The notes beneath the pieces were generated by a model. That model was not told the origin of the DNA. It was given only the letters and a program-made list of their open reading frames with translations, and searched no databases. A DNA stretch of 63,004 nt from an uncultured Nitrospirota bacterium. GTDB taxonomy: Bacteria > Nitrospirota > Nitrospiria > JACRHA01. Below are positions 4,469-34,545 of this stretch, piece after piece (positions within the stretch are counted from its first letter, which is position 1; the number at the start of each line of letters is the position of its first letter). Where the stretch lies: positions 26,347-89,350 of the forward strand of contig CAYZUL010000002.1 of the NCBI GenBank assembly GCA_964481895.1, in the 5' to 3' direction. The position numbers were made by a program, and so were the translations under genes.

Positions 4469-5698
4469 TTAAGCAGACAGTTTTTCAATTAAATCCAGAT
4501 ATCTTCTTGCAAGCATTTTTCTGTCATAATTTTTTTTAACAAAGGCGCATCCGCTTTGGCCCATTTGACTGCGCTTCCGGGAATCGCCTTTTAATATTTT
4601 TATGGCCCGTACAAGTTCCTCCGGATTTTCAGGCGGAACAACTAAAGCTGCTCCTGATTTCATCAGGATATCGGCAGACTCGCCCCGCAGTGATGCGATA
4701 ATTGGTTTCGCGCAAGCCATGATCTCAAACATCTTGGAGGGAATAAATGTGGAGAAACCGGCAACATCGCGTAAAGGGACCAGGCAGACATCGGACAAGT
4801 GATAGAAACTTACGGCCTTCTCTCTCGGCTGTCCCGGCAGAAAAGTTACGTTTAGCAAATGCCTGCTCTTCGCCGAATTTACCAGAGCCTTTTTTGCAGC
4901 GCCCTCGCCCACGAATAAAAAATGTATATCTCTTTCCGCCTGAATGCTCCCGGCGGCATCGAGGACCTTTTGCAGCCCGTGAGAACTCCCGTGCGCGCCG
5001 ATGTACAAAACAATGAACTTATCTTCGGGAATGCCGAGCTCGGCCCTAAGCTGATTTGTATTTCCTTGACCCGCTTTATATCTATCAAGGTCTACACCAT
5101 TGGTTATCACTTCTATCTTATCATCGGCAATACCTCTCCTTATCATATCTTTAGCAAAACCATTTGTAACCGGAACAACCAATGCAGCTTTGTGGTAAAG
5201 AAAAAGCTCAACAGCTTCGAGCATCTTGATAAGATACCGGTTTCTCAATACGCCAAGCTCAATGAATATACCGGGCCAGAGGTCTCTTACCTCAAAGATG
5301 TAAGGCACACGCCGCAGCCGGGATATTATGAAAGCGCTTATGACCGAGAAAAAATTCGGGGAGCTGACAATGAGGACATCCGGCCGCTCCCCTCTGAAAA
5401 GGCTGAGAAGTATGAGGCTTGCCATAAATGAGAGATGCGCAAATGTTTTTTTGAAAAACCCCTCGTTCGGCGTGGCATAAAGCCAGTGACGCCAAATACG
5501 GACATCATCAACAACCTCTTCCATAAAGATCTTCCCCCGGTATTCAGGCGGGATGATGCCGGTAGGATGATTCGGAAAACCGGTCAACACTGTAACTTCA
5601 TGCCCCTGCTTCACCCATTCCCTTGTCATTTCCGATAAACGCGCCTGAGGGGCGCCAATCTCAGGGGGATAGTAGTGGCATATTAAATTTATTTTCAT
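4469..5698 (-). CDS. GT4 glycosyltransferase, WbuB-like
   Basis: N-terminus ICHYYPPEIGAPQARLSE and the C-terminal GT-B region (VPLRDVAGFSTFIPSKMFEIMACAKPII). Its start overlaps the stop of the upstream radical SAM gene by 4 nt. Confidence 0.8.
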   Translation of the reverse strand: MKINLICHYYPPEIGAPQARLSEMTREWVKQGHEVTVLTGFPNHPTGIIPPEYRGKIFMEEVVDDVRIWRHWLYATPNEGFFKKTFAHLSFMASLILLSLFRGERPDVLIVSSPNFFSVISAFIISRLRRVPYIFEVRDLWPGIFIELGVLRNRYLIKMLEAVELFLYHKAALVVPVTNGFAKDMIRRGIADDKIEVITNGVDLDRYKAGQGNTNQLRAELGIPEDKFIVLYIGAHGSSHGLQKVLDAAGSIQAERDIHFLFVGEGAAKKALVNSAKSRHLLNVTFLPGQPREKAVSFYHLSDVCLVPLRDVAGFSTFIPSKMFEIMACAKPIIASLRGESADILMKSGAALVVPPENPEELVRAIKILKGDSRKRSQMGQSGCAFVKKNYDRKMLARRYLDLIEKLSA

Positions 5699-7137
5699 AG
5701 AGTAAGCCTGGCTTTAACCAGATTAAAAAACATGGAGGTCTTTCTTAACAACCCTCCCTGGCCGTTGGATTTGAACAACCACTCTTTCATGAAAACAGGA
5801 TTCATAAAAAAATACTTTCCGTACCGCGCCTGAAATTTTTTCTTAACAAAAAAGGAGTGCAGGTAATAATACGCATCGAGTATCTCCTTCTCAGTCATGG
5901 TGTCCGTAACCATAACCGGCTTATACTCCTTTAAATACGTAGGTGAAGTGACATAGCGCGACCAATCGGTTATCTTAAGATAGCCCTTTTCTTTAGCCGT
6001 CCTGTAAAGTTCCGTACCGGGGAAAGGGCAGGCAATGGAAATCATTACATCCTCGCCGATGTCCCTCAGAAGCCCTGCGGTCATTTTTACCGATTCCATG
6101 TCTTCACCTAAATTGCCAACCATAGTAAAGGCCCCTATTTGAATGCCTGTTTCCTTTGCCCATTTATGCGCATTAATTATCTGTTCATTGGTGGTACCCT
6201 TTCTGGCGATCCTGCGAACGGCAGGGTTCCCTGATTCAACGCCGACATCAATTCTGATACAGCCGCTTTCTTTCATTTTTTGCAGCATTTCCCTGTCAAT
6301 GGTATTTACCCGTGCGTTTGCCATCCACTTGAATGGAATTCCGCACTCTTTAATCAACCGGCATAATTCAAGGACACGCTCTTTTTTCAAGGTGATCATG
6401 TCATCGACAAAATCAAACTTTGTCATGCCATATTTTCCGTGAAGAAATTCTAATTCAGAGAAAATATTTTGCGCGCTGCGCGCCCTGAAGGCCCTGCCGA
6501 AGATAGTATGAGAATCGCAGAAGATGCAATAATTCGGGCAGCCCCGGCTTGAAAGCAGGGCAAAGGTATCGCCCTCTTCTATTGAAAAAACGGAGTACTT
6601 TTCTACTTTGATTAAATCCCATGCAGGGAAAGGGAGGGACTCCACGTCTTCAATGAGGGGTCTTGCGCCGGTACGGATTATTCCGCCGTTGTCTCTGAAA
6701 CAAATACCGTTAATATGGTGAAAATGTGTCTCGCCTGAATTGACCGTATTAACAAGTTCGAGAAAAGTCATCTCTCCTTCACCAATCACTGAAATATCTA
6801 TTGAAGGACATTCCTTAAGTATTTCTTCAGGAAGTGCTGAGACATGCGGGCCGCCCGCAACAATACAGACAGACTCTAAAGAAGACTTTATTAATTCAGC
6901 CAGACGTAGGCACTCACCGTGTTGATTAGTCATGAATGATATCCCGAGCGCCACGGGATTAAATTCCTTCACGAGTGCGGAGAGCTTTTCATCCGAATAG
7001 TTGTCAACATTCAGGTCCACAATCATGGGATTATACCCTTCTCTTCTCATAAAGGAGGCAAGATAAGCCAGTCCGAGAGGTGGGTTTTTTCTCGGATAAG
7101 TGTACCGGGGATAAATTAAGAGGATGTTGTTATTCAT
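5695..7137 (-). CDS. B12-binding-domain radical SAM enzyme (class B-like), copy 1
   Basis: 480 aa. N-terminal region MNNNILLIYP..PLGLAYLASF..GISFM resembles a cobalamin-binding Rossmann-like domain. SSRGCPNYCIFC is the CxxxCxxC motif. Confidence 0.85.
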   Translation of the reverse strand: MNNNILLIYPRYTYPRKNPPLGLAYLASFMRREGYNPMIVDLNVDNYSDEKLSALVKEFNPVALGISFMTNQHGECLRLAELIKSSLESVCIVAGGPHVSALPEEILKECPSIDISVIGEGEMTFLELVNTVNSGETHFHHINGICFRDNGGIIRTGARPLIEDVESLPFPAWDLIKVEKYSVFSIEEGDTFALLSSRGCPNYCIFCDSHTIFGRAFRARSAQNIFSELEFLHGKYGMTKFDFVDDMITLKKERVLELCRLIKECGIPFKWMANARVNTIDREMLQKMKESGCIRIDVGVESGNPAVRRIARKGTTNEQIINAHKWAKETGIQIGAFTMVGNLGEDMESVKMTAGLLRDIGEDVMISIACPFPGTELYRTAKEKGYLKITDWSRYVTSPTYLKEYKPVMVTDTMTEKEILDAYYYLHSFFVKKKFQARYGKYFFMNPVFMKEWLFKSNGQGGLLRKTSMFFNLVKARLTL

Positions 7138-7142
7138 GAAAA

Positions 7143-8147
7143 TTAAAAGTAACGCAATTTAAAATATACCTTCCAGAGTTGAGAGGTCATTTTGTTCCAG
7201 TTGGACTCAAGGTATGCCTGCCATTTTTTATGGTACTTCAGGAAAACTTTCCTGTCCGTCAGGTTATACATAGCAAGCATCTGGACGGCATGGAGCTTTT
7301 GGTAGTAAATGCTGGAAGGCATGAAAGGCTGTTTTTTATCATATCCCTGCGGCCAGTCATATGAAGTCCAGAATCCAAGGTCATAATTCTCAAGATTCGC
7401 CTCCAGCGTTTTGAGGCATTCTTCCCAAAGATTATGCGCGTGATCATCATTGAAATAAACCGCGTAATCCCTTACCCCCCAGAGAGCCCATATGAAACCA
7501 TTCAGCACATGGTTCGGGGGATTTAAAATATATTCCTCCAGCCAGATAAAGCCGTCCTGATCGTCTAATACGCCTGCTTCATGTTCACGGGCCGAGGAAT
7601 GAAAAGCCTTGTAGCCCTTGTGAGCCATTTCCGCATAAATTTTATTTCCGGTAACCTGGTGCGCCCTTATCAAAACAGAAAGGGCCTGTCCCTGCGCCAG
7701 CGCTGATCTCCATGGGGAGGATAGATAATTCCTCATCTCAAAGGGGAAATTGTATTCCCATAAAATGATACCGTCCCTGACAGCTCTGCCTTTATTTAAA
7801 AAATAATTTGCCTGGGTCAGAAAGGCATCCTCGCCTTTTTGATTATCAAGATATTTATCGAAGTATCCTAATGCCTGCTGCGCTATCGCGTTTGGATTAT
7901 ATTGCAATCCGATGCTCCCATGATAATTGAGCATGATAACACCGTCATCATCACAATGGTTTTTAAAAGCAGTCTTGGCGATGAAGTTCATGGGATAACG
8001 ACGCACACCGGAGATGTCTTCATTATCCAATTCGTTTACTGACAACGGCGTATGCCAGAATGAGAGATTGGAATCACGGCGGTTTAAAATATAGGCATTA
8101 ATGATTCGCGATAAATAAGCCTTCTTGTTTCTCATGGATGCATTCAC
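7143..8147 (-). CDS. D-glucuronyl C5-epimerase-like protein (C5-epim_C-type)
   Basis: WRSALAQGQALSVLIRAH..TGN..Y and VLNGFIWALWGVRDY resemble the conserved blocks of the glucuronyl C5-epimerase C-terminal domain. Confidence 0.55.
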   Translation of the reverse strand: MNASMRNKKAYLSRIINAYILNRRDSNLSFWHTPLSVNELDNEDISGVRRYPMNFIAKTAFKNHCDDDGVIMLNYHGSIGLQYNPNAIAQQALGYFDKYLDNQKGEDAFLTQANYFLNKGRAVRDGIILWEYNFPFEMRNYLSSPWRSALAQGQALSVLIRAHQVTGNKIYAEMAHKGYKAFHSSAREHEAGVLDDQDGFIWLEEYILNPPNHVLNGFIWALWGVRDYAVYFNDDHAHNLWEECLKTLEANLENYDLGFWTSYDWPQGYDKKQPFMPSSIYYQKLHAVQMLAMYNLTDRKVFLKYHKKWQAYLESNWNKMTSQLWKVYFKLRYF

Positions 8148-9191
8148 TTAGAAAATGTCTGAAACTTTCATGCGCTGCAAAGTCTGATCGCCTTCGGTTG
8201 CCAGAGGGGTATAGAAAAGATACTCTGTTTTATTCTCTCCCTGAGGAAATAAAATTTGACCTAATTGAAAATATTTCATGGGCCAGGGGTCTTTTTTGAA
8301 TTTTGCAAGACATTGCCATTCCAAGCCATCGCTGGAACCCCATATACAGGCATGGTTACTGGTGTTAACCTCGCTCGGTTCAATGGCTGTTGAAAAGAAT
8401 AGGCGGTCACCGACCTTGCAGCCCCAGTAAACCGAGCTTTCAACAGATGCAAGCTCTTCTAATTTTCCGGAATTTTTATTAACTCTGTAAATGTAATTTT
8501 TTTCATAAGGAGTGTCTGTGCCGAAATACATATAATCTCTTGTGAAGATAAGTTGAATAGCCCTGTATTGCTGGCTACCGCTGATCACTTCTTCCAGCGT
8601 CTTAAACCGGTCGCATGTAACCCATATGCCGGATTCGCGGTCATCGTCACCTGTGGTCACCCAGATCCGGTTGTCATATGGATCGCAAAAGACACCATGC
8701 ACGTGCCTGATACTATTCTTTTTAAATGTGTAGGCAATATCCCATGACTGTGCATGGTCTGTGGATGTATATATATTTACTTCTTCTCTTCCCGGATTGT
8801 CGAAATATTCTCCCCAGAAAAGGCCGCCGCCCGGCCCTTCACATATAAAGAGCGGCCTTGAGCCTCTTGGAATTGAAAAAGGTTTATTCACATTTCCGTT
8901 GACGGTTTCATATGTCTGAATAGTACGCTTCGCCACAATCAGAGTCTTTCCGTCTTTTAAGACTCTTATGGAATGAACTCCTTTACGCAACAGGCGCGCG
9001 TGTAATCTTGAGTATGCACATGCGCCGCCGTTTAAAGTTGCAGGATACTCCCTCCATGACATGCCGTGATCATCGCTAGTGCAGATCCTGTTGCCAATCT
9101 GGGCATAGACCAACTTATCATTGACATACAGAAATCTTGCCCTCTCCCCATCTATTAATTTATTCGCCAAATCATCCTTTCCGCTCTTCAT
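8148..9191 (-). CDS. Asp-box (BNR) beta-propeller protein, sialidase-like fold, function unknown
   Basis: Three Asp-box-like motifs: SDDHGMSW, STDHAQSW and SSDGLEW. No signal peptide is evident. Its ends abut or overlap both neighbouring genes (8147/8148 and 9188-9191). Confidence 0.5.
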   Translation of the reverse strand: MKSGKDDLANKLIDGERARFLYVNDKLVYAQIGNRICTSDDHGMSWREYPATLNGGACAYSRLHARLLRKGVHSIRVLKDGKTLIVAKRTIQTYETVNGNVNKPFSIPRGSRPLFICEGPGGGLFWGEYFDNPGREEVNIYTSTDHAQSWDIAYTFKKNSIRHVHGVFCDPYDNRIWVTTGDDDRESGIWVTCDRFKTLEEVISGSQQYRAIQLIFTRDYMYFGTDTPYEKNYIYRVNKNSGKLEELASVESSVYWGCKVGDRLFFSTAIEPSEVNTSNHACIWGSSDGLEWQCLAKFKKDPWPMKYFQLGQILFPQGENKTEYLFYTPLATEGDQTLQRMKVSDIF

Positions 9192-10036
9192 ATCTTTTCA
9201 GCCATCAGGTGATACGACGGCGACATGAGTAAAGATTTACACAATACCTGATCAACATGGGCCAACATATTCCCAGACAGGATACGCCAGAACACAGGAG
9301 GCAAAGCGTAACCTCCTTTTAGGGAGTGAATTATAAAATTATTTTTTTTCAGGGCTTCAGCAACTTGCCGCGGTGTCATGGCATCGCGTTTTCTGAATAT
9401 TCTGTTGTAGTAATTGGAAGGGTTAGTCTCCTGAAAGACCACACGTCCACCAGGTTTAAGCAGCATGTCAACCAGTTGGAGCATCTTTTCATTTGGAATT
9501 AAATTGTTAAATGAAAATAAAAAGTTTATTGCGTCAAACTTCCCAAGTTGCTCCCAATTTACTTTAAAAACATCTTCGCGGACAAGAGAGATATTCAGTT
9601 TACGCCCGGAAATCTCTTCATAAAGTTTTTTCCTTTTTTCTACTAAATCGCATACGTCCTGTCTGACATCGCAGCCAAAAACTTCCGCCCCCGATAACGC
9701 CATTAAAATAAGCTGGTTCCCGCAGCCGGAGCCAATTTCCAATATTTTATAATCTGCATCTGTACGGCCAATCAGAAAGGCCATTGTCTCTGCCAGGTTT
9801 CTTGCAAAATGATTGAGGAAGAATTGTCTGGTGTCTGGATCTATATACTTTCCATAGTAATTTTTTTTATCCTGTAGCAGTCCAGATGCCCATTCGGGAT
9901 AATTATTTAATGATGCCTCCCTCAAGAGATTAGAGTACCATTTATTCAATTTGTCCTTCGTCAAAGGAAAATCTTCTCTTTTGGGTATATAAAAATTCCC
10001 TGCAGCTACTTGAGAGAATGATTTTAAATAATTCAT
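9188..10036 (-). CDS. Class I SAM-dependent methyltransferase
   Basis: Motif I ILEIGSGCGNQL and an acidic post-I residue (FGCDV). Confidence 0.75.
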   Translation of the reverse strand: MNYLKSFSQVAAGNFYIPKREDFPLTKDKLNKWYSNLLREASLNNYPEWASGLLQDKKNYYGKYIDPDTRQFFLNHFARNLAETMAFLIGRTDADYKILEIGSGCGNQLILMALSGAEVFGCDVRQDVCDLVEKRKKLYEEISGRKLNISLVREDVFKVNWEQLGKFDAINFLFSFNNLIPNEKMLQLVDMLLKPGGRVVFQETNPSNYYNRIFRKRDAMTPRQVAEALKKNNFIIHSLKGGYALPPVFWRILSGNMLAHVDQVLCKSLLMSPSYHLMAEKI

Positions 10037-10037
10037 G

Positions 10038-11438: not shown

Positions 11439-11474
11439 ATTAAGATTTCCAGATATTTATTATTGGTTAATTCT

Positions 11475-26345: not shown

Positions 26346-26347
26346 AA

Positions 26348-27493: not shown

Positions 27494-27578
27494 AGCATTA
27501 TGCCCGCAAGTTAGCCGGTTAAATCATAGTAGGAATATCCATTGGGTCATCCGTAGTAACAGGTCTTAGACTATTATT

Positions 27579-29024
27579 TTATTTTCTTGTTGCTATCTCT
27601 TTCAAGGGTTCAATAAATATTTTCCGAAACAAGGGGGTCCAGTATACTTCCGCTATTTTATGGCTGATAGATTCGGGTATTCCTTTGCTATGGAAAAATT
27701 GCTGTGTTTCACTCAGGTGAGCCTTTCTTTTTGATTTAAATGTATACCACTTCACTTTGTTATTAGCCCACTTATACAATTTCTTTCTATCGCTTATTGA
27801 CAATTCCGGAGTTTCAAAGATTGGGTCATTTTTCCAATGAGATGCCTCGCTAATAAACTGGACAGGGTCTTTCCTGAAATAGTCATTATTCTTCACCCAT
27901 TCATAGAGTTGTGTATTCGGAAATGGTATCAGGTTATAAAACCGTGCATCATACACAGGGTATTTTGTTGCCAGTCTTACTGAATCCTCGATATCTGCTT
28001 TTGTCTCTCCCGGAGAACCCAGAAGGAAAAAAAGAGTGACCTTATAACCCAGATCACATGCGTCCTTGATGGCTTGTTCAATAGTCTCAATTTTTTCTCC
28101 TTTACGAAGTGTATCAAGCACTTTGTTGTTTCCACCTTCAACTCCGAAAGCTATGTAGTGGAATCCTACCTCTTTCATTCTTGCAAGGACTTTCCTATCT
28201 ACTTTGTCAGCCCTTAAACCATTGCCGCATGATAACTTCAGCCCTTTCAAGCCCTGCTTTTCTATTTCATCACATATATCCCACACTCTTTTTCTGATTA
28301 GTGTGAAGTTGTCATCAGCAATACCGAACTCTCTATATCCCTTGTTATAGCAATACCGCAATTCATCAACTACAGACTCAGGACTCCTTACCCTGAACTT
28401 CTTTCCAATCGCCAGATTGACAGGGCAATATATGCAGTGATAAGGACACCCTCTTGACGTAACTATATTAATAAAGCGGGGATATTTAGCTAATTCAACG
28501 TTTGAATAACGCGGGAAGCCGTTTTCGTCCAGATTACCGATAAAATCTCTATCCCCCGTATAACTTATTCCCCCTGAATCATTCCTATAAAGCAATCCTT
28601 TTATTTCAGGCAATGGTTTATCACCCTTGCACAATTCCACAATTGTCTCTTCTCCCTCAAGTGTTATCCCAAAATCAATGGCCTGACACTCCTCTAAAAC
28701 CCTTTCTCTTAAAGTGGATAAATGCGGACCGCCGATAACAATTGGTAAATGGGGATAAGACTCTTTGATGGATTTAATCATCTCATAAGTGTGTTTATAG
28801 CCAAATGACATCATGCTGATTCCTATCAACTGAGGTTTGAATTTTTCTATCTCTGTCTTTAACTCATCAAGGCTATATCCAAGTCCCATATCAATAATTT
28901 TATTTTTGATGTTTGACTTAACTAACGCCTCCGAGACATAAGCAAGCCCTGTAGGCAGCCACCTGTTATCATAATGCGAGCCGTAATAAACGGGCTTAAT
29001 AAGCAGGACGTTATTAGTTTTCAT
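27579..29024 (-). CDS. B12-binding-domain radical SAM enzyme, copy 4
   Basis: MKTNNVLLIKP..PTGLAYV..GISMM and TSRGCPYHCIYC. Closest paralog of copy 2. Confidence 0.85.
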   Translation of the reverse strand: MKTNNVLLIKPVYYGSHYDNRWLPTGLAYVSEALVKSNIKNKIIDMGLGYSLDELKTEIEKFKPQLIGISMMSFGYKHTYEMIKSIKESYPHLPIVIGGPHLSTLRERVLEECQAIDFGITLEGEETIVELCKGDKPLPEIKGLLYRNDSGGISYTGDRDFIGNLDENGFPRYSNVELAKYPRFINIVTSRGCPYHCIYCPVNLAIGKKFRVRSPESVVDELRYCYNKGYREFGIADDNFTLIRKRVWDICDEIEKQGLKGLKLSCGNGLRADKVDRKVLARMKEVGFHYIAFGVEGGNNKVLDTLRKGEKIETIEQAIKDACDLGYKVTLFFLLGSPGETKADIEDSVRLATKYPVYDARFYNLIPFPNTQLYEWVKNNDYFRKDPVQFISEASHWKNDPIFETPELSISDRKKLYKWANNKVKWYTFKSKRKAHLSETQQFFHSKGIPESISHKIAEVYWTPLFRKIFIEPLKEIATRK

Positions 29025-29141
29025 TTTTTAGTGGACTATAATCGATGAACGTTATTGCCCAGAATATTTATTTATTTTTATCTTGTTGTACGACACTGAC
29101 TGTTTATGTCAAACCCAATACAAAAAGTTGCTTTGAAGAAT

Positions 29142-30509
29142 TCACATAATTGCTTCACATATTTTTATGTCCGTGCTGGATATCTGGCCATTGAATATGG
29201 CTGCTAATTCCCCTGCCTGTTTTTTTCGTTCGTATTTGTCTATATCGGATAACTTGACATTGGATACAAGTTCCCTTCTCTTAAAACGCCCAAGCATTTC
29301 ACTTATTTTGCTGGTGATAGCCTCTATGTCAGTAGGAGATACTATCTCTCCGGCATCAGCCTCCAGGATTATTCTTGCAGCTTCACCCCCGGAGGGCAGG
29401 AGAGCCAATATCGGTTTTCTCGCATATAAATATAAGAATACCTTTGATGTGACAACCCAGAAATTATTATTCGTAGGAGTTTCGGGCCGCTCTACTAATA
29501 ACAGAATATCGCTTGCGAGCAGTTTTTCCAGTGTCTCCTTGTAAGACATCCATGGTATTATGGCGACAACATCGTTCAAATTTGCCTGTTCTATGTAGTG
29601 ACGTGTCTTCTTTTCCAGCTCCGGAGAGTATTTGAACTCGCCGATGAAATTTACTTTTAATTCCCCTCTTATTTCTGGATGGTGTTGAAGGAGGATATTT
29701 AAGGCTTTCAAGAAATACTCGGGGCTGCGTCCAGGTCCCCATGTACCGGCGTATGTAATGACGCACCTGCCGTTTCTTGAAGCGGCAGCAGTCTCTATAA
29801 AATCGTCTTTGTCATAGCCATTATAGATTACGCTTATCTTGTCCTGACAGAGGTTGCCAAGTTTTATCAGCTCCTCCTTCAACATCTGTCCCACACTTAC
29901 AATGTGGTCAGAGCGGTTCAGGACGAGCCTTTCAAGATATTTGTCGGTTTTTCGTTTGGCAAATGAAAAATTATAGTAAGGGTGTAACGTCGTCCATGGA
30001 TCTCTGAATTCGCAAATCCATTTTACAGATTTAGTAAGCCTTAACAGCAAGGCGACCATGTGTGCCTCGTTATCTGGAGCGCTGGAATAGATTAAATTGA
30101 TGTCTTCCTGCTGGAGCAACCGCCGCGCACTGAAAAAGGCAGGTAGGAGCCACGAATAGTCGTAAAAGAAGAATAAATTAAGCACCTGCAAAAAATGATC
30201 TCGCAGACCATTGGTCATTCCCCCATTTTTATTAGACGAAGATAATCTGCAAACAGCAGTTGGAAGTTGTGGCTGGTACCGGAAAGGGTGCCATTCAGGG
30301 ACACGGCAGATGGTTAAATTAGGTGGCAATTCCTGAAGCAAGGTTTTATCTACTCCGTGATACTCGCCAATCTCCTTTGTCAGAATGATTGGCTGCCACC
30401 CGTAATCAGTCAGGTGCTTGGCGAACTTTGTCATTCGTTTAGCCCCTACATGAATATCAGGGGCAAAGTGGGTGGTAATGAATAAGACTTTTTTCACAGC
30501 AAGGCTCAC
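29142..30509 (-). CDS. GT-B glycosyltransferase (GT4-like, long N-domain)
   Basis: KKVLFITTHFAPDIHVGAKRMTKFAKHLTDYGWQPIILT. It shares the N-terminal pattern of 37214-38482. 455 aa. Confidence 0.65.
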   Translation of the reverse strand: MSLAVKKVLFITTHFAPDIHVGAKRMTKFAKHLTDYGWQPIILTKEIGEYHGVDKTLLQELPPNLTICRVPEWHPFRYQPQLPTAVCRLSSSNKNGGMTNGLRDHFLQVLNLFFFYDYSWLLPAFFSARRLLQQEDINLIYSSAPDNEAHMVALLLRLTKSVKWICEFRDPWTTLHPYYNFSFAKRKTDKYLERLVLNRSDHIVSVGQMLKEELIKLGNLCQDKISVIYNGYDKDDFIETAAASRNGRCVITYAGTWGPGRSPEYFLKALNILLQHHPEIRGELKVNFIGEFKYSPELEKKTRHYIEQANLNDVVAIIPWMSYKETLEKLLASDILLLVERPETPTNNNFWVVTSKVFLYLYARKPILALLPSGGEAARIILEADAGEIVSPTDIEAITSKISEMLGRFKRRELVSNVKLSDIDKYERKKQAGELAAIFNGQISSTDIKICEAIM

Positions 30510-30519: not shown

Positions 30520-31989
30520 TTACAAATCTTTAAATTTGAAAAAACTTTGTTCAACGGTCTTCTTTTGATGCAGAAATTCAGACGCGATCCCCCGTGCAAT
30601 GTATGACAGATTGCCATATGCGTTCCATGGGTCGTATCTTGTCAGATTGCAAACAGTCTTCCATGCCTTTGTAAGAATCGGAGCGTTCATCCGTCCGATA
30701 CCCGTCTGTTTCATGGTCCATGATATTTTCTCCATGGCCCTGATTCTGTCCGAAAGAGGATACTCGGGCGTTTCAAAGGCAACCCGCAGTCGTTCATTAC
30801 CGCTGATTTGTCCGGTATACTGATGGGCTGTTTTGTAATCGTAATGCATAGTGCCGTGTTTTAGTACCCACTCGTATGCCGGCGTTCCCGGATAGGGAAT
30901 CAGAAGAGACCATGCCATTTCATCGAACCCAAGCTTTTGTGCCTGCTTAAAGCTTTGCATATCCGTCTGATATGAGGAGCCGGGCAGTCCGATGATAAAT
31001 GAACCGCTTACCCTCAGTCCGTTCTGTTTGGCAATTGCCACTGCCCTGGCGATATCATCTATAGTTTCGCTTTTGTTTACATTGGGGAAGACACTTGGAG
31101 ACAAAGTCTCCACCCCTAATTTCACATCATAAAACCCGGCCCGTTTCATTGCCTTCACCATTTCATCGGTAATCCTGTCGGCGCGGAGACCACTCCTGCA
31201 CGTCCAGGACATATCAATTCCTTCTTTAAGGAGAAGTTCACAAAATTCTATTACTCTTTCACTTGTCAGGTTGAATACGGGCTCACATATATCAAATCTG
31301 CTGACACCAAACTGGTCTCTTGCAAATTTAAGTTCCTCAATTGCCAGATTGAAATTCCGGTTCCTCCATTTTCTCTGCATGGTATGAGGGTTGCAGAATA
31401 CACATCTGAAAGGGCACCCCCGGCTGGTAGATATTCGATACGTGTATTCAGGCGGGACCCTCTTCAGCCCGAATAACCGATAGTCCGGAAAAGGTAGTTT
31501 ATTCAGGTCAGAGATCCACTTGCGCGGCGCATTGACCTTAATCTCTCCGTTGTCCCTGTAAATGATACCTTCAATATCCTGAAGACCCTGCCCGGCCTCC
31601 AGATGTTCAATTAATTCGACCAGCGTTTCCTCACCTTCTCCAACAACGCCAAAATCAACCCTTTTACTGTCTTTCAAAGCACACTCTCTCTCAAAGGACA
31701 TCTGTGCGCCACCAAGAACTATGTGTCCTCTAAAGTAATTGCCAAGATGTTCAACCAGATGCAATGCTGATGCATAAGTAGTGCACATCACGGTAATACC
31801 GACCATATCAGGAGAATAATTTTTTATAATGTCCGGCAGCGCTTTCTCATAGTTCGATATGCGCCGGCAGTTTAAGTCCAGGACAAATACCTCATGACCT
31901 GCCTTATGAACGGATGCAGAGAGCCAGCCAAGACTCGTACTTAAGTTTTCGCCTGTTGCCACATAGGGGTCAATTAACAGTACTCGCAC
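30520..31989 (-). CDS. B12-binding-domain radical SAM enzyme, copy 5
   Basis: MRVLLIDP..LGWLSASV..GITVM and TSRGCPFRCVFC. Confidence 0.85.
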   Translation of the reverse strand: MRVLLIDPYVATGENLSTSLGWLSASVHKAGHEVFVLDLNCRRISNYEKALPDIIKNYSPDMVGITVMCTTYASALHLVEHLGNYFRGHIVLGGAQMSFERECALKDSKRVDFGVVGEGEETLVELIEHLEAGQGLQDIEGIIYRDNGEIKVNAPRKWISDLNKLPFPDYRLFGLKRVPPEYTYRISTSRGCPFRCVFCNPHTMQRKWRNRNFNLAIEELKFARDQFGVSRFDICEPVFNLTSERVIEFCELLLKEGIDMSWTCRSGLRADRITDEMVKAMKRAGFYDVKLGVETLSPSVFPNVNKSETIDDIARAVAIAKQNGLRVSGSFIIGLPGSSYQTDMQSFKQAQKLGFDEMAWSLLIPYPGTPAYEWVLKHGTMHYDYKTAHQYTGQISGNERLRVAFETPEYPLSDRIRAMEKISWTMKQTGIGRMNAPILTKAWKTVCNLTRYDPWNAYGNLSYIARGIASEFLHQKKTVEQSFFKFKDL

Positions 31990-33109
31990 TTAAAACCTCC
32001 TTAACCTTTGTTCTCTCGCGCAGCCGATGATATATTTCCTCAAGAATGTCAAAATTCTTCTCCCAGTCCGCCCTTTTCTTTGCGATTTGTAAATTGCGTT
32101 CTCCCATCTCTCTTTGAAGTTCAGTGTTCTCCAATAAATTAATAATTGCTCCCACCAGCGGTTTTTCGTCCTTCTTGGGCACAACGTAACCGTTCACCCT
32201 ATCTTCCACCCACTCAAAGTTGGAAGGCACATCAGTAACCACAACCGGCAGTCCGCAAGCCATAGCCTCAAGAAGAGAACACGAAGTCCCGTCGCTCAAA
32301 GAGGTGCTTATATAAATGTCTGCGGCATTGAGGTGTTCGGCTAACTTTGTTTTGTCAAGCCAACCGGCAAAATGGACAACGTCATCTATTCCTAATTCGT
32401 TGACAAGCCTTCGATATTCCTGTTCCAGCGCGCCGGTTCCCACCAGAATTACCCTCGCATCAGGACGCTTTTCTAATACAGCGGGGATAGAGCGAATAAA
32501 ATACTCCACGCCGTGCACTTTAATATCAAAGTTTCTTGTGCATATGAGAATCCGGTTTCGCTCCCATCCCAGTTTCTTCCTGATTCCTTCTGAAGGTGCG
32601 GGATAGAACGTCTTAAGATCAATCCCCCACGGAAAAACCACAATCTTATCCGGCAGGCAACTTGACAGTTTAATAATTTGCTCCTTGACCTTATAGGCGT
32701 CACATGTAATCATATCCGCACGCCTCAAAGTAAAACGGGTTTTCCACATGGCACGGGTTGAATCATAGGGTCTGATTAAAACGTCTGAGCCCCAGGGCAT
32801 GGAAATTGTCGGCTGGAAATAACTTAAAGCTCCAATCAAGCCATGGTCCTGGACCCATCCTGTGTGCAAGACATCCGGTTTAATAACATTCAGTAACTTG
32901 CGAAGATGCCATGCAGTCTGCAAAATGATAAACCGTCTGAAGCGATGCAGGGTATTGTAATCATAAAAATAGTTTTTTACGCCCTCAACTTCATACCTCC
33001 GGTCCGGATAGTATGAAATAAAATGGGGCTCGTGACCTCGCTCCACCATCTTTTCCAGAAAATACCGGTCATAAATGCTGTTTCCACGGGATAGGTAGGC
33101 TATTTTCAT
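31970..33109 (-). CDS. GT4 glycosyltransferase
   Basis: SDGTSCSLLEAMACGLPVVVTDVPSNFEWV. It overlaps both flanking radical SAM genes (31970-31989 and 33106-33109). Confidence 0.85.
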   Translation of the reverse strand: MKIAYLSRGNSIYDRYFLEKMVERGHEPHFISYYPDRRYEVEGVKNYFYDYNTLHRFRRFIILQTAWHLRKLLNVIKPDVLHTGWVQDHGLIGALSYFQPTISMPWGSDVLIRPYDSTRAMWKTRFTLRRADMITCDAYKVKEQIIKLSSCLPDKIVVFPWGIDLKTFYPAPSEGIRKKLGWERNRILICTRNFDIKVHGVEYFIRSIPAVLEKRPDARVILVGTGALEQEYRRLVNELGIDDVVHFAGWLDKTKLAEHLNAADIYISTSLSDGTSCSLLEAMACGLPVVVTDVPSNFEWVEDRVNGYVVPKKDEKPLVGAIINLLENTELQREMGERNLQIAKKRADWEKNFDILEEIYHRLRERTKVKEVLSASTVN

Positions 33110-34545
33110 TGCAAGCCCGAACCTTTTTTTAGATAGTTGATTCCCTGAATTGCGATAGTTCTTTGTATACGACTTAATAATCTCCTGTCATCTATGGGAG
33201 AACAATTCTCCCATAGCAAACGCAACAAGTGAATAATCGGATACAGCCACCGTGGGCTGTATACATAAAGGTCAAACACGTATTGGTAGCCAATCAACTT
33301 ACGGGGTGAGATAGAGGGTTGTTCTAAAAAAACTTCACTGTAATAACCGGCATTAATCTCCCGGATAGACCATCCTTCTTTATCACAGATGTCTTTAGCC
33401 TCGGAACCTGCAAGTGGCATAAAGATCGTATGACAAACTCCGTCAGGCCGGGATAATCTGTTTAGATTAATAGTATCCCATATTGTTTTTTCTGTCTCGT
33501 GTGGTGCCCCTATAATATTAAATGTAACCACCTTCAATCCTGCTTTCTTGGCATCTGATATTGCAGTCAGTATCTGTTCTTTGCTCATATTCCGCTTGAG
33601 CACCTTGTTTCTTTGATAATCGTTGCCTGCCTCAAGGCCTATGTGCACTTCCCGGCATCCGGCATTTTTCAAAGCGCCTAAAACTTCCTTATTTACATGA
33701 TTTGCCCTGGTTTGACATTGGAAAGGAAGAGCTATTTCTCTGGCATATGCCGGGCAAAATTCAAGAATACGTTTAGAATCAATTGTAAAAGTGTCGTCGG
33801 AAAATGTTACACCTTTAACATCATAGCTGAATTTTACCTCTTTAAGTTCCTCGATCAATTTCTCAGTTCTTCTTTTTCTGAGAAACTGGCCTTTACCATG
33901 ATAAAGGTCCTGAAGGTATGGGTTATGACAGTAGCTACATTGATGGGGGCATCCCCTTGAACTGATAAAATTTGCCCACTTAATATTTCTGTTTTCAAAT
34001 TCGTCACGTATTAGTTCCCTATCCGGAAAGGGGATAGTATCGAGATCCTCTACAAGAGGACGCACATCATTTTTTAAAATCCTGCCGTTTTGTCTAACCC
34101 ATATGTTTGCAATATTGGTTGTATCACGTTCATCCTCAAGCGCCTTCACGAGATCCAACATAGCGTATTCCCCTTCGCCAACGCAAAGAAAATCCGCATT
34201 ACTCTGGTTTAACATCCTCTCCGGATCAACAGTGGGGCCGGCGCCGCCCAGGACAATTTTGATGTCTGTATTTTTCTTAATCCATTCCGCAAACAATTTG
34301 CCTCTGTAGAAGTTAGTGCTAAGCAGCGAAATACCGATAAGACCCGGTTTAAACTTATTAACAACATTCAGTAACCTTTCTTTAACGACAAGAGGATTCT
34401 TGTCGCAATTCCAGTCTTCCTCTTCGGTAAGTTTAAAAAGAGCTGTTTCATGGCCATGCTGCTTAAGGACCGCGGATAGGTACAGAATACCAAGCGGCTG
34501 TTCAAATGAACGAATATGCAGTGGGTAAATTAGGATAACTTTCAT
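33106..34545 (-). CDS. B12-binding-domain radical SAM enzyme, copy 6
   Basis: MKVILIYP..PLGILYLSAV..GISLL and SSRGCPHQCSYC. Confidence 0.85.
   Translation of the reverse strand: MKVILIYPLHIRSFEQPLGILYLSAVLKQHGHETALFKLTEEEDWNCDKNPLVVKERLLNVVNKFKPGLIGISLLSTNFYRGKLFAEWIKKNTDIKIVLGGAGPTVDPERMLNQSNADFLCVGEGEYAMLDLVKALEDERDTTNIANIWVRQNGRILKNDVRPLVEDLDTIPFPDRELIRDEFENRNIKWANFISSRGCPHQCSYCHNPYLQDLYHGKGQFLRKRRTEKLIEELKEVKFSYDVKGVTFSDDTFTIDSKRILEFCPAYAREIALPFQCQTRANHVNKEVLGALKNAGCREVHIGLEAGNDYQRNKVLKRNMSKEQILTAISDAKKAGLKVVTFNIIGAPHETEKTIWDTINLNRLSRPDGVCHTIFMPLAGSEAKDICDKEGWSIREINAGYYSEVFLEQPSISPRKLIGYQYVFDLYVYSPRWLYPIIHLLRLLWENCSPIDDRRLLSRIQRTIAIQGINYLKKGSGLQ

What the first reader, a model, noticed from the sequence alone, without database searches (positions are those of the whole stretch)
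4469..34545. Six repeated 'B12-binding radical SAM + glycosyltransferase' cassettes inside a polysaccharide locus
Six paralogous 480-490 aa ORFs share one architecture (5695-7137, 17897-19372, 22338-23786, 27579-29024, 30520-31989, 33106-34545). Each has an N-terminal ~140-aa region that looks like a cobalamin-binding domain (M..VLLI.P ... G(L/I)xY(L/V) ... GIS/GCS.M). Each then has an almost invariant (T/S)SRGCPxxCx(F/Y)C radical SAM motif. Every copy is followed on the same strand by a GT-B glycosyltransferase. The gaps are -4, 48, 81, 85, 10 and -4 nt. Three cassettes (34545 down to 26348) are back to back, with start/stop overlaps at 33106-33109 and 31970-31989, which suggests translational coupling. 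Class B (cobalamin) radical SAM enzymes are known to alkylate unactivated C or P centres; GenK, Fom3 and TsrM are examples. I know of no characterised O-antigen, capsule or EPS pathway with one such enzyme per glycosyltransferase. Inference: each cassette adds one sugar and tailors it by radical, possibly cobalamin-dependent, chemistry. The chemistry could be C-methylation, other alkylation or a rearrangement. The substrate could be a nucleotide sugar or the lipid-linked intermediate. With the two non-B12 radical SAM genes, the locus holds eight radical SAM enzymes.
Basis: partly seen in the sequence, partly recalled or inferred. Interest (0 to 1): 0.88.

Follow-up and report, generated by a model that had tools for sequence, protein, structure and literature searches.

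The report
Radical SAM enzymes paired with glycosyltransferases
A surface-sugar gene cluster from an uncultured anaerobic bacterium carries six old, divergent copies of a vitamin-B12-type radical enzyme, each next to a sugar-adding enzyme; relatives elsewhere are fused to such enzymes, which points to an unstudied kind of radical chemistry in making bacterial surface sugars.

Summary
All six minus-strand ORFs hit Pfam B12-binding and Radical_SAM above cut-off, each has CxxxCxxC, and each is followed by a GT4 glycosyltransferase with exactly the stated gaps. Six of six is unlikely by chance (gene-order permutation P = 2e-4).

The copies are ancient paralogs (26-32% identity; r2/r4 48%). None reaches any NCBIfam named-family cut-off. 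The family holds thousands of sequences, almost all from uncultured anaerobes (Nitrospirota, Desulfobacterota, Omnitrophota, Planctomycetota, CPR, archaea), mostly in glycan loci.

The strongest new evidence is natural fusions: B12-rSAM::GT4 in both orders, B12-rSAM::GT2, fusions to methyltransferase or aminotransferase, and a 2633-aa protein with two rSAM and three GT4 modules. Functional coupling of rSAM and GT is therefore well supported.

The rigid "one rSAM then one GT" cassette is not:
- Elsewhere only 22/74 rSAMs have a GT downstream.
- Tandem rSAM arrays occur.
- The GT/rSAM region is reshuffled between close strains.
- The steadiest neighbours of r1 are a C5-epimerase-like gene upstream and its GT4 downstream.

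The chemistry is unknown. Sugar C-methylation is the best guess. The closest fold is AprD4, a cobalamin-independent sugar dehydratase. I found no report of this in the literature searched.

The parts
5695..7137 (-). r1: B12-binding + radical SAM enzyme (480 aa). It founds a well-conserved clade.
   Evidence: Pfam. Orthologs of 45-96% identity occur in 20 loci from about 10 phyla. The AF2 model has pLDDT 89.6.
4469..5698 (-). g1: GT4 glycosyltransferase (409 aa). It overlaps r1 by 4 nt and is co-inherited with it.
   Evidence: Pfam. Its identity co-varies with r1 across loci. In L020/P0121 it is fused to the r1 ortholog in one 915-923 aa protein.
7143..8147 (-). C5-epim_C (D-glucuronyl C5-epimerase-like) protein, 5 nt upstream of r1. 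A steady neighbour of r1.
   Evidence: Pfam E 3.3e-47. It lies immediately upstream of r1 in 13 of the 20 r1-clade loci and nearby in three more. A BLAST ortholog is present in 17 of 20. 14 of 81 upstream neighbours belong to this family.
3583..4455 (-). NAD(P)-binding reductase/epimerase (290 aa) of the conserved r1 module.
   Evidence: Pfam. Conserved downstream of g1. Fused to the Bac_transf phosphoglycosyl transferase in L020.
2912..3574 (-). Small Bac_transf phosphoglycosyl transferase, the initiating enzyme of the r1 module.
   Evidence: Pfam E 2e-56. Synteny.
8148..13361 (-). Conserved tailoring block upstream of C5-epim_C: an unknown 347-aa protein, a class I methyltransferase, a CapK/PaaK-like adenylating enzyme and an AsnB-type amidotransferase.
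   Evidence: Pfam and NCBIfam. 93-99% identical in L018, and syntenic in L012, L016 and L020.
17897..19372 (-). r2: B12-binding + radical SAM enzyme (491 aa).
   Evidence: Pfam. 48% identical to r4.
16739..17848 (-). g2: GT4 glycosyltransferase, 48 nt downstream of r2.
   Evidence: Pfam Glycos_transf_1, E 9.8e-38.
15605..16714 (-). Radical SAM + SPASM enzyme (369 aa, no B12 domain) downstream of g2.
   Evidence: Pfam. No NCBIfam cut-off is met. SPASM rSAMs recur next to B12-rSAMs in other loci and in fusions (P0127, P0245).
22338..23786 (-). r3: B12-binding + radical SAM enzyme. It is the most divergent copy, with an insertion in the N-domain and GGGL in place of GGPH. The start may instead be the GTG at 23819.
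   Evidence: Pfam. Alignment.
21042..22256 (-). g3: divergent GT4-like glycosyltransferase, 81 nt downstream of r3.
   Evidence: Pfam Glyco_trans_1_4 40.4 bits and Glycos_transf_1 34.3 bits.
27579..29024 (-). r4: B12-binding + radical SAM enzyme (481 aa).
   Evidence: Pfam. A 93% ortholog in L009 is separated from the g4 ortholog by a methyltransferase gene.
26348..27493 (-). g4: GT4 glycosyltransferase, 85 nt downstream of r4.
   Evidence: Pfam E 2e-46.
30520..31989 (-). r5: B12-binding + radical SAM enzyme (489 aa, GTG start). It overlaps the end of g6 by 20 nt.
   Evidence: Pfam. The 68% ortholog in L101 is flanked by g6-like (73%) and g5-like (40%) GTs.
29142..30509 (-). g5: GT4-like glycosyltransferase (455 aa), 10 nt downstream of r5.
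   Evidence: Pfam Glyco_transf_4 56.9 bits. Glycos_transf_1 is below its cut-off.
33106..34545 (-). r6: B12-binding + radical SAM enzyme (479 aa).
   Evidence: Pfam. The 86% ortholog in L009 has different neighbours.
31970..33109 (-). g6: GT4 glycosyltransferase. It overlaps r6 by 4 nt and r5 by 20 nt.
   Evidence: Pfam E 1.5e-34.
13423..14610 (-). Additional GT4 with no adjacent B12-rSAM.
   Evidence: Pfam.
24064..25197 (-). Additional GT4 with no adjacent B12-rSAM upstream; it lies upstream of r3.
   Evidence: Pfam.
34610..40529 (-). Upstream end of the same gene string: a Wzy_C protein (polymerase or ligase), a methyltransferase, a GT4, Wzm (ABC-2 permease) and Wzt (ATPase with a Wzt_C glycan-binding domain).
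   Evidence: Pfam.

Best explanation
Shown:
- The six genes encode soluble enzymes with no predicted membrane helix. Each has a cobalamin-type N-terminal Rossmann domain and a radical SAM core.
- They are ancient paralogs.
- They sit in the glycosyltransferase-rich part of a polysaccharide assembly locus of an uncultured Nitrospirota bacterium. A close strain carries different genes in part of that stretch.
- Members of this enzyme family are physically fused to GT4 or GT2 glycosyltransferases in other organisms.

Inferred:
- Each enzyme works with a partner glycosyltransferase on the cytoplasmic side of the membrane, before export.
- It uses a 5'-deoxyadenosyl radical to abstract a hydrogen from an unactivated carbon of a sugar.
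- The most likely outcome is transfer of a methyl group from methylcobalamin (C-methylation), as in GenK, GenD1 and MoeK5.
- The most likely substrate is the undecaprenyl-diphosphate-linked oligosaccharide just before or just after the partner GT acts. The donor NDP-sugar is the alternative.
- With six different enzymes, the repeat unit would carry several radical-installed modifications. Swapping rSAM+GT genes between strains would diversify the surface glycan.

For r1, the conserved module is: PglF/CapD-type dehydratase, phosphoglycosyl transferase, NAD reductase, GT4, r1, C5-epimerase-like protein, then amidotransferase, adenylating enzyme and methyltransferase. This places r1 at the first or second sugar of the lipid-linked intermediate, possibly a uronic acid.

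My confidence is about 0.85 that these are glycan-tailoring enzymes functionally coupled to glycosyltransferases. It is about 0.4 that the chemistry is cobalamin-dependent C-methylation, and about 0.55 that the substrate is lipid-linked rather than an NDP-sugar.
For: - Domains and motifs.
- Cobalamin-type N-domain: the r1-clade profile aligns its GGP(H) and GEGE motifs to enzymes crystallised with cobalamin (TokK, OxsB), to MgmA, which the literature describes as B12-dependent, and to CysS. The AprD4 N-domain does not align.
- No TM helix.
- Glycan context of homologs across phyla.
- Immediate neighbours by Pfam: 21 of 70 downstream are GT4 and 6 are GT2; 12 of 81 upstream are GT4.
- Window adjacency: P = 2e-4.
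- Fusions:
  - L020/P0121 and P0122, B12-rSAM::GT4.
  - L025, B12-rSAM::GT4.
  - L047, P0128 and P0349, GT4::B12-rSAM.
  - P0137 and P0168, with GT2.
  - P0283 (2633 aa), an uninterrupted ORF with two rSAM modules, DUF362, a ferredoxin domain and three GT4.
  - P0268, rSAM-MT-MT-GT2-rSAM.

- The fusion proteins looked up (P0128, P0137) lie in glycan loci.
- L098 shows a small GT2, an rSAM, a PMT_2 (GT-C) and GT2::rSAM in a row. I read this as the pattern in which a polyprenyl-phosphate sugar is modified between its synthase and a GT-C.
- r1, g1, C5-epim_C and the reductase co-vary in identity across loci.
- Precedents from papers:
  - HpnI (GT), then HpnK, then HpnJ (B12-type rSAM) acts on a lipid-linked sugar (PMC12583986; PMC9204698).
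  - GenK, GenD1 and MoeK5 are listed among carbon-centre methylases of gentamicin and moenomycin biosynthesis, and Fom3, MoeK5 and HpnJ co-cluster (PMC9204698).
- HpnJ is a top NCBIfam partial hit for four of the six copies.
Against: - No biochemical or chemical data exist for any member, and glycan-linked members come almost only from MAGs.
- The closest solved structure by both sequence and fold is AprD4. AprD4 dehydrates a sugar diol and does not bind cobalamin (PMC12931638).
- A Pfam B12-binding hit does not prove cobalamin use.
- Top NCBIfam partial hits include non-methylases (HpnJ, BchE).
- Fusions to class I methyltransferases do not discriminate between chemistries.
- The fusion P0129 (rSAM::hexapeptide acyltransferase::DegT aminotransferase) points to NDP-sugar substrates for at least some members.
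- Some hosts are CPR or DPANN organisms. From my own knowledge, these usually lack cobalamin synthesis.
- No cobalamin riboswitch or cobalamin gene is present in the window.
- rSAM-GT adjacency outside the window is only modestly above background.
Confidence: 0.6

Rival explanations
1. The enzymes are AprD4-like and cobalamin-independent. They use the 5'-deoxyadenosyl radical to dehydrate a vicinal diol of a sugar, or to catalyse another non-alkylating radical reaction such as epimerisation. This would give deoxy or keto sugars at the oligosaccharide level. The N-domain would be structural only.
For: - AprD4 (6FD2) is the best PDB match by profile (E 4.6e-46 and 2.1e-42 over the core plus C-terminal domain).
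- It is also the best match by fold (TM 0.72-0.76 over 473 columns, rmsd 4.0).
- AprD4 acts on a sugar of a pseudo-disaccharide: 6FD2 is titled as its complex with paromamine.
- AprD4 carries a Rossmann-type N-domain without binding cobalamin (PMC12931638).
- An NAD(P) reductase is conserved in the r1 module, as AprD3 accompanies AprD4 (own knowledge).
Against: - The AprD4 N-domain does not align to the family profile (score -1.7), whereas the N-domains of TokK, MgmA, CysS and OxsB do, sharing the GGP(H) and GEGE motifs.
- The NCBIfam AprD4 model scores 66-120 bits against a cut-off of 500.
- The conserved reductase is fused to the phosphoglycosyl transferase in L020, which ties it to the initiating sugar rather than to r1.
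- Five of the six copies have no reductase nearby.
Confidence: 0.2
2. The enzymes are cobalamin-dependent but are not methylases. They would rearrange or contract sugar rings (as HpnJ and OxsB do) or form C-C bonds, giving carbocyclic or cross-linked units in the glycan.
For: - HpnJ is the top NCBIfam partial hit for r2, r4 and r6, and among the top three for r1, r3 and r5. BchE is top for r1 and r5.
- HpnJ acts on a lipid-linked glucosamine made by a glycosyltransferase (PMC12583986; PMC9204698).
- OxsB is among the structural matches.
Against: - All these scores are far below the family cut-offs (144-183 bits against 577.6 for HpnJ).
- The PMC9204698 passage retrieved places HpnJ, BchE and the ladderane enzyme in the same main cluster as many methylases, with Fom3 and MoeK5 colocalising with HpnJ at a more stringent threshold. 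Similarity to HpnJ therefore does not separate the chemistries.
- No HpnK-like deacetylase is paired with the six copies.
Confidence: 0.15
3. Substrate-level rival, independent of the chemistry. Each rSAM modifies a nucleotide sugar before transfer, and the neighbouring GT is simply the transferase specific for that unusual donor.
For: - It explains rSAM-GT pairing and fusion equally well, through channelling of a rare donor.
- P0129 fuses the rSAM to a DegT aminotransferase and a hexapeptide acyltransferase. From my own knowledge, these enzyme families act on NDP-sugars.
- The enzymes are soluble.
Against: - The sugar-directed relatives I know of (GenK, GenD1, MoeK5, HpnJ, AprD4) all act after glycosyl transfer (own knowledge, with PMC9204698 and PMC12583986 for HpnJ).
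- L098 shows the order small GT2, rSAM, GT-C. I read this as typical of modification of a polyprenyl-phosphate sugar.
- r1 travels with the initiating transferase and the reductase of the lipid-linked pathway.
Confidence: 0.3
4. The adjacency is incidental. The rSAMs serve some non-glycan process (lipid, cofactor or peptide maturation) and merely lie in the locus.
For: - More distant relatives (about 33% identity) in Desulfovibrionaceae sit next to aldehyde:ferredoxin oxidoreductase genes with no GT nearby.
- 46-49% relatives of r2/r4 sit in a module of deacetylase, GNAT-like protein, ATP-grasp, PS-decarboxylase-like protein and rSAM, without an adjacent GT.
Against: - Permutation P = 2e-4 in the window.
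- Many independent fusions to GT4 and GT2.
- Consistent glycan context over about 10 phyla.
- No precursor-peptide or lipid-synthesis genes in the locus.
Confidence: 0.03

Closest known systems
HpnI / HpnK / HpnJ (bacteriohopanetetrol cyclitol ether pathway)
   Same: A glycosyltransferase puts a sugar on a lipid, and a B12-domain radical SAM enzyme encoded nearby then remodels that lipid-linked sugar (PMC12583986; PMC9204698). HpnJ is the best or near-best NCBIfam partial hit for the six copies.
   Different: Scores are 144-183 bits against the HpnJ cut-off of 577.6. The window holds no hopanoid genes and no HpnK-type partner. It has six enzymes in a polysaccharide locus instead of one in a lipid pathway. 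HpnJ is proposed to contract a ring, not to methylate.
MoeK5 (moenomycin), GenK / GenD1 (gentamicin), Fms7: cobalamin-dependent radical SAM sugar C-methyltransferases
   Same: They are class B radical SAM enzymes listed among the methylases of carbon centres in gentamicin and moenomycin biosynthesis (PMC9204698). From my own knowledge, they methylate unactivated sugar carbons after glycosyl transfer, and the moenomycin pathway also combines a GT, this rSAM and an AsnB-type amidotransferase on a lipid-linked uronic acid. That would parallel the AsnB / C5-epimerase-like / r1 / GT4 module.
   Different: They belong to secondary-metabolite pathways of actinomycetes, with one or two per cluster, and I know of no fusion to a GT. 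No model or sequence of them was available here, so relatedness was not tested.
AprD4 (apramycin 3'-deoxygenation; PDB 6FD2)
   Same: It is the closest solved structure by sequence profile and by fold, with the same three-part architecture and a similar length. Its substrate is a sugar of a pseudo-disaccharide.
   Different: AprD4 does not bind cobalamin (PMC12931638). Its N-domain does not align to this family, whereas the N-domains of TokK, OxsB, MgmA and CysS do. The NCBIfam AprD4 cut-off is not met (66-120 bits against 500).
TokK, CysS, MgmA, TsrM, OxsB (structurally characterised B12-type radical SAM enzymes)
   Same: They share the domain order and the GGP(H) and GEGE motifs of the N-domain. 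Foldseek E-values are 1e-19 to 1e-23.
   Different: Identity is 15-21%. Their substrates are carbapenem, peptide, protein or nucleotide, not glycan, and their C-terminal domains differ.
Conventional O-antigen / capsule loci with class I SAM methyltransferases and NDP-sugar C-methyltransferases
   Same: The overall locus logic is the same: an initiating transferase, GT4s, Wzy_C, Wzm/Wzt, Wza/Wzc and a variable region that differs in a close strain.
   Different: From my own knowledge and the literature searches here, no characterised surface-polysaccharide pathway uses B12-type radical SAM enzymes, let alone six.

Membership tests
Class B (cobalamin-dependent) radical SAM enzymes | Radical SAM core with a CxxxCxxC cluster motif | tested here: met
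   PF04055 E 2e-19 to 4.7e-28 in all six. C200, C204 and C207 are invariant.
Class B (cobalamin-dependent) radical SAM enzymes | N-terminal cobalamin-binding Rossmann domain | tested here: met
   PF02310 scores 55-80 bits against a cut-off of 32.1 in all six. The N-domain aligns with those of TokK, MgmA, CysS and OxsB, including the GGP(H) and GEGE motifs, and not with the cobalamin-free AprD4 N-domain. This is met at the sequence level only.
Class B (cobalamin-dependent) radical SAM enzymes | Actual binding of, and dependence on, cobalamin | not testable with these tools
   It needs purified protein. AprD4 and ArsL show that a Rossmann N-domain does not guarantee binding (PMC12931638).
Class B radical SAM methyltransferases (GenK / MoeK5 / Fom3 type) | Methyl transfer to an unactivated carbon, with SAH and 5'-dA as co-products | not testable with these tools
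   This is a biochemical property. No curated model of GenK or MoeK5 was among the NCBIfam hits.
HpnJ (TIGR03471) | Score at or above the curated cut-off of 577.6 bits | tested here: not met
   137-183 bits for the six copies.
HpnJ (TIGR03471) | Neighbourhood with hpnI, hpnK and hopanoid genes | tested here: not met
   The window has no hopanoid genes and no polysaccharide deacetylase next to the six copies.
BchE (TIGR02026) | Score at or above the curated cut-off of 481 bits | tested here: not met
   101-193 bits.
AprD4 family diol dehydratase (NF033070) | Score at or above the curated cut-off of 500 bits | tested here: not met
   66-120 bits, although AprD4 is the closest fold.
Sden_1168 family P-methyltransferase (NF038361) | Score at or above the curated cut-off of 575 bits | tested here: not met
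   The best score is r3 at 189 bits.
GT4 (GT-B fold) glycosyltransferases, for the six downstream genes | Glycos_transf_1 / Glyco_transf_4 domains above the Pfam cut-offs | tested here: met
   g1, g2, g4 and g6 match strongly. g3 matches at 34-40 bits. g5 matches by Glyco_transf_4 (56.9 bits), with Glycos_transf_1 just below its cut-off.
Proposed 'rSAM then GT' cassette as a conserved unit | The same rSAM-GT pair is kept adjacent in relatives | tested here: inconclusive
   Kept for r1-g1 and fused in L020. Not kept for r6. For r4, a methyltransferase gene is inserted in L009. r5 keeps its upstream GT better than its downstream one. Overall, 22 of 74 rSAMs have a GT downstream against a 20% background.

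The most novel reading that the evidence does not exclude
Many uncultured anaerobic bacteria and archaea build surface glycans on 'radical assembly lines'. In these, glycosyl transfer steps are coupled to cobalamin-dependent radical C-H functionalisation of the sugars, sometimes within one megaprotein (P0283: two rSAM modules, a ferredoxin domain and three GT4). The products would be poly-C-methylated, C-branched or carbocyclic polysaccharides of a kind not yet described. Swapping of rSAM+GT genes would serve as a serotype-diversifying mechanism.
Probability: 0.3. Interest if true: 0.85.

Novelty: new variant of a known kind. Interest (0 to 1): 0.68.

Why it matters
B12-type radical SAM enzymes that tailor sugars are known only from a few antibiotic and hopanoid pathways. 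Here they appear as a large, uncharacterised set of families inside cell-surface polysaccharide loci of many uncultured anaerobic lineages. A single locus holds up to six or seven copies, and some are fused to glycosyltransferases.

If they do what their relatives do, these organisms make surface glycans with radical-installed modifications, such as C-methyl or other C-branched sugars. Standard glycan-locus annotation and carbohydrate analysis would not anticipate these.

This would add a new class of tailoring reaction to O-antigen and capsule biosynthesis. It would supply new catalysts for C-H functionalisation of carbohydrates. It would also link surface-glycan diversity to cobalamin availability in anoxic communities.

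The natural fusions give ready-made constructs for testing substrate and order of action.

Tried and rejected
- Genome scan with the six-paralog alignment A1 failed because it has no conserved stretch long enough. I used an r1-clade alignment instead, so the survey is biased towards r1 relatives.
- Six literature searches on B12 / class B radical SAM combined with polysaccharide, exopolysaccharide, O-antigen, glycan, C5-epimerase or glycosyltransferase found nothing relevant. The 2026 review of B12-dependent radical SAM enzymes does not mention polysaccharides, glycans or glycosyl groups.
- I asked whether the six cassettes arose by duplication of rSAM+GT units. Rejected: the GTs are 19-28% identical and do not mirror the rSAM tree. 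Even for the closest rSAM pair (r2/r4, 48%), g2/g4 share only 27% over 289 residues.
- Membership in HpnJ, BchE, ApyD, AprD4, PhpK, Sden_1168, the ladderane enzyme, MgmA or BzaD families is rejected. All scores are far below the cut-offs.
- An AprD4/AprD3-style pairing of r1 with the conserved NAD reductase is disfavoured, because that reductase is fused to the phosphoglycosyl transferase in L020.
- Rfam found no cobalamin riboswitch; the only RNA hit was a tRNA-Cys.
- My simple ORF caller lost 14 of 135 rSAM ORFs and misbehaves on high-GC Desulfovibrio loci. Counts from it are approximate. The Pfam neighbour counts rest on the same gene calls.
- I did not model rSAM-GT interfaces. The structure tool returns no inter-domain confidence, and it does not accept concatenated orthologs from the fetched loci.
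- I built no phylogeny against characterised class B enzymes, because their sequences could not be obtained.

Full report
**1. The observation.**
The window carries one long string of minus-strand genes. The ORF listing finds the six ORFs at the stated coordinates, 479-493 aa long.

- Domains: all six hit Pfam B12-binding (55-80 bits, cut-off 32.1) and Radical_SAM (71-99 bits).
- Motifs: their alignment shows an invariant SRGCPxxCxxC motif, plus invariant GG and EGE motifs in the N-domain.
- Downstream genes: each is followed on the same strand by a GT4 (GT-B) glycosyltransferase. The gaps are -4, 48, 81, 85, 10 and -4 nt.
- Other radical SAM genes: two further Radical_SAM+SPASM genes exist, at 15605-16714 and at 43687-44739. 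The second lies outside the stated range.
- Chance: shuffling the order of the 28 genes between 2912 and 38482 puts a GT after all six rSAMs in 0.02% of 200,000 trials.

One caveat concerns the back-to-back array r6-g6-r5-g5-r4-g4. It can equally be read as GT followed by rSAM, and g6 and r5 overlap by 20 nt.

**2. The locus and the organism.**
The whole window is polysaccharide machinery. It contains:
- Wza-, Wzc- and CpsB-type export genes.
- Two phosphoglycosyl transferases.
- A Wzy_C protein.
- A Wzm/Wzt ABC exporter with a Wzt_C domain.
- Nine GT4, two GT2 and a GT9.
- An AsnB-type amidotransferase and a CapK/PaaK-like adenylating enzyme.
- A C5-epim_C protein.
- Three class I methyltransferases.
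- Acetyltransferases, and nucleotide-sugar enzymes.

The nearest genome locus is L018, an uncultured Nitrospirota MAG. It is 93-99% identical in protein from AsnB to the PglF/CapD-type dehydratase.

**3. The six copies are old paralogs of no named family.**
- Pairwise identity is 26-32%, except r2/r4 at 48%.
- The six GTs are 19-28% identical and do not mirror the rSAM tree. The cassettes therefore did not arise by recent duplication.
- Against NCBIfam, every copy gives only partial hits (HpnJ, BchE, ApyD, Sden_1168, the ladderane enzyme, PhpK, AprD4, MgmA). All are at 15-40% of the curated cut-offs.
- None of the six has a hydrophobic stretch strong enough for a membrane helix.

**4. Is the N-domain a real cobalamin domain?**
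Profiles of the six copies and of the r1 clade were searched against PDB sequences.
- The best match is AprD4, but only over the radical SAM core and the C-terminal domain (E 4.6e-46 and 2.1e-42).
- MgmA, OxsB, TokK, CysS and TsrM follow, and their matches include the N-domain.
- The GGP(H) and GEGE motifs line up with TokK, MgmA and CysS. The AprD4 N-domain scores -1.7.

An AlphaFold2 model of r1 (pLDDT 89.6) has AprD4 as its closest fold (TM 0.72-0.76 over the full length). TsrM, MgmA, OxsB, TokK and CysS come next.

A 2026 review states that AprD4 and ArsL do not bind cobalamin although they have a Rossmann-type domain (PMC12931638). The sequence evidence therefore favours a true cobalamin domain, while the catalytic and substrate half looks most like a sugar-binding, cobalamin-free dehydratase. 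Cobalamin use remains unproven.

**5. Distribution and context.**
- A profile search found 3562 relatives at E <= 1e-20 among the 8000 candidates scored. Almost all are from metagenomes and MAGs, and they are named only generically.
- Gene neighbourhoods were examined in several ways: look-ups of encoding contigs; a scan of 185,579 species genomes with the r1-clade alignment, which gave 80 loci; and my own ORF calling with local HMMs.
- The family sits in glycan loci in Nitrospirota, Desulfobacterota, Syntrophales, Omnitrophota, Planctomycetota/Pirellulales, Latescibacterota, Anaerolineae, Elusimicrobiota, CPR (Parcubacteria, Falkowbacteria) and archaea.
- Seventeen of 71 non-redundant loci hold two or more copies within about 20 kb, and five hold three or more. 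The largest are L088 (Elusimicrobiota, six, mostly in tandem), L009 (five) and L087 (an archaeon, four). Six per locus is therefore at the high end but not unique.

More distant relatives lie in other contexts.
- Homologs of about 33% identity in Desulfovibrionaceae, including the only cultured hosts in the scan, follow an aldehyde:ferredoxin oxidoreductase gene.
- Relatives of r2/r4 at 46-49% identity end a module of deacetylase, GNAT-like protein, ATP-grasp and PS-decarboxylase-like protein.

**6. Test of the cassette idea.**
Pfam scans of the immediate same-strand neighbours of 104 non-redundant rSAMs gave these counts:

| Position | Counted | GT4 | GT2 | another B12-rSAM | Other frequent families |
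|---|---|---|---|---|---|
| Downstream | 70 | 21 | 6 | 14 | methyltransferase 5, AsnB 4 |
| Upstream | 81 | 12 | 3 | 13 | C5-epim_C 14, AFOR 11 |

- Outside the window, and within GT-containing loci, 22 of 74 rSAMs have a GT downstream. GTs make up 20% of the other genes there. Thirty-five of 74 have a GT on one side or the other. This is a modest enrichment, not a rule.
- The close strain L018 keeps the AsnB-to-dehydratase block at 93-99% identity. Upstream of it, however, L018 has a different GT4 (48% identical to its best window match) and a different rSAM paralog (31%).
- Window GC dips to 0.36-0.40 between about 10 and 30 kb.
- L009 has r4 (93%) and r6 (86%) orthologs with reshuffled neighbours.
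- L101 keeps g6'(73%)-r5'(68%)-g5'(40%).

The rSAM/GT region thus differs in a closely related strain and is rearranged in more distant relatives. I read that as a serotype-like mosaic; this is an interpretation, since L018 covers only the stretch nearest the conserved block.

The exception is r1. Its module is stable, and the identities of its members co-vary from 96% down to about 50% across phyla. The module runs: AsnB / adenylating enzyme / methyltransferase, C5-epim_C, r1, GT4, NAD reductase, phosphoglycosyl transferase, dehydratase. C5-epim_C lies immediately upstream of r1 in 13 of the 20 r1-clade loci and within a few genes in three more.

**7. Fusions, the strongest evidence for coupling.**
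Single uninterrupted ORFs combine the rSAM with glycosyltransferases.
- L020/P0121 (Omnitrophota): the r1 ortholog fused to its GT4. The next ORF fuses the reductase to the phosphoglycosyl transferase.
- L025 and P0122: B12-rSAM::GT4.
- L047, P0128 and P0349: GT4::B12-rSAM.
- P0137 and P0168: fusions with GT2.

Other fusion partners also occur: class I methyltransferases (L046, P0132, P0145, P0180), a SPASM radical SAM (P0127), and a hexapeptide acyltransferase plus DegT aminotransferase (P0129).

An exhaustive search with P0121 brought up megaproteins.
- P0283 (2633 aa): B12-rSAM, a second rSAM, DUF362, a ferredoxin domain, three GT4 and TPR repeats.
- P0289: the same plan with one GT4.
- P0268: rSAM-MT-MT-GT2-rSAM.
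- P0303, P0245 and P0264: four B12-rSAM modules in a row.

The P0283 ORF has no in-frame stop over 7.9 kb under the standard code. The fusion proteins looked up lie in glycan loci. In L098 the order is small GT2, rSAM, PMT_2 (GT-C), GT2::rSAM, SPASM rSAM. I read this as the pattern in which a polyprenyl-phosphate sugar is modified between its synthase and a GT-C.

**8. Mechanism.**
Shown: the domain make-up, solubility, glycan context, and physical fusion of family members with GTs.

Inferred:
- The enzymes act in the cytoplasm, before export.
- They generate a 5'-deoxyadenosyl radical.
- They functionalise a sugar C-H bond in step with a partner GT.

C-methylation through methylcobalamin is the most likely chemistry. 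[quoted passage not shown] I put this at about 0.4.

The rivals are:
- AprD4-like, cobalamin-free dehydration or another non-alkylating reaction, at about 0.2.
- HpnJ/OxsB-like rearrangement, at about 0.15.

For the substrate, a lipid-linked intermediate is favoured, at about 0.55. The reasons are the HpnI/HpnK/HpnJ precedent (PMC12583986), the position of r1 in the initiating module, and L098. P0129 argues for NDP-sugars in some members.

**9. Comparison with the known, and novelty.**
The closest analogues are HpnI-HpnK-HpnJ, MoeK5 and GenK/GenD1, and, by structure, AprD4. None of the named families is met at its cut-off.

I found no report of B12-type radical SAM enzymes in O-antigen, capsule or EPS assembly, either in the held literature or in two reviews of the enzyme class.

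I rate this a new variant of a known kind. The superfamily and the general type of chemistry are known. The pathway context, the multiplicity and the GT fusions are new.

**10. Verdict.**
Functional coupling of rSAM and GT is strongly supported. The strict one-rSAM-per-GT cassette is not a conserved unit. Chemistry, cofactor and substrate are untested.
- Interest: 0.68.

Noticed in passing
P0283 = L100:194-8095 (+); also P0289, P0268, P0303, P0245, P0264: Megaproteins of 1.8-2.6 thousand residues string together several B12-rSAM modules with GT4/GT2, methyltransferase, DUF362 and ferredoxin domains. P0283 is an uninterrupted ORF under the standard code. The fused ferredoxin/DUF362 could be a built-in electron donor for the radical SAM clusters.
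   Followed up: partly
window 8148-10036 (-); L012:7128-9035, L020:6870-8774: The class I methyltransferase (9188-10036) and the unknown 347-aa protein (8148-9191; only a weak Sortilin/BNR-like hit), which overlap by 4 nt in the window, form one fused 634-635 aa protein in L012 and L020. They probably act together.
   Followed up: partly
L020:12754-14205 (+): The NAD(P) reductase of the r1 module is fused to the Bac_transf phosphoglycosyl transferase (483 aa). This suggests that the reduction is tied to the initiating lipid-linked sugar.
   Followed up: partly
L005-L008 and L011 (about 4-11 kb in each): Relatives of r2/r4 at 46-49% identity end a conserved five-gene module: Polysacc_deac_1, a 220-aa GNAT-like protein, ATP-grasp, PS_Dcarbxylase, B12-rSAM. 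No GT is adjacent, and the module lies next to a UDP-ManNAc3NAcA-type sugar locus. Its function is unknown.
   Followed up: no
L063, L065, L068, L073, L075, L078, L083, L085, L091, L092, L094: A subfamily about 33% identical, in Desulfovibrionaceae and relatives (including cultured strains), always follows an aldehyde:ferredoxin oxidoreductase gene. This is a non-glycan branch of the same broad family.
   Followed up: partly
window 10000-30000 against the flanks; L018: GC falls to 0.36-0.40 in the GT/rSAM-rich middle of the locus, against 0.42-0.50 in the flanks. In the near-identical strain L018, the genes just upstream of the conserved AsnB block (window about 13.4 kb onward) are replaced by a different GT4 and rSAM. 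This resembles a horizontally exchanged, serotype-determining region.
   Followed up: partly
window 38501-40529 and 47618-56794 (-): The window holds both an ABC-type exporter (Wzm, and Wzt with a Wzt_C domain) and a Wzy/Wza/Wzc-type system. It also has two CpsB/CapC phosphatases (48916-49659, 54558-55313) and two Bac_transf initiating enzymes (2912-3574, 55373-56794). Two or three glycan pathways are probably concatenated here.
   Followed up: no
window 42574-46398 (-): The second SPASM radical SAM (43687-44739) lies between a DegT aminotransferase and a GFO_IDH_MocA::hexapeptide acyltransferase fusion (44821-46398). This could be a radical step in amino-sugar nucleotide synthesis. In NCBIfam it gives only weak partial hits.
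   Followed up: no
window 58670-62509 (-): Two large ORFs (449 aa and 811 aa) at the upstream end of the gene string have no Pfam hit at E <= 1e-5.
   Followed up: no
window 46-690 (+): A NYN_YacP-domain gene (46-546) and a tRNA-Cys (616-690) on the opposite strand mark the downstream boundary of the glycan locus. The YacP-like gene is conserved at 92% identity in the same relative position in L018.
   Followed up: no
window 40510-42408 (-): A GT9 (heptosyltransferase-like) gene is paired with a DUF4254 gene directly upstream of the Wzt/Wzm genes. This may link the O-polysaccharide part of the locus to core assembly.
   Followed up: no
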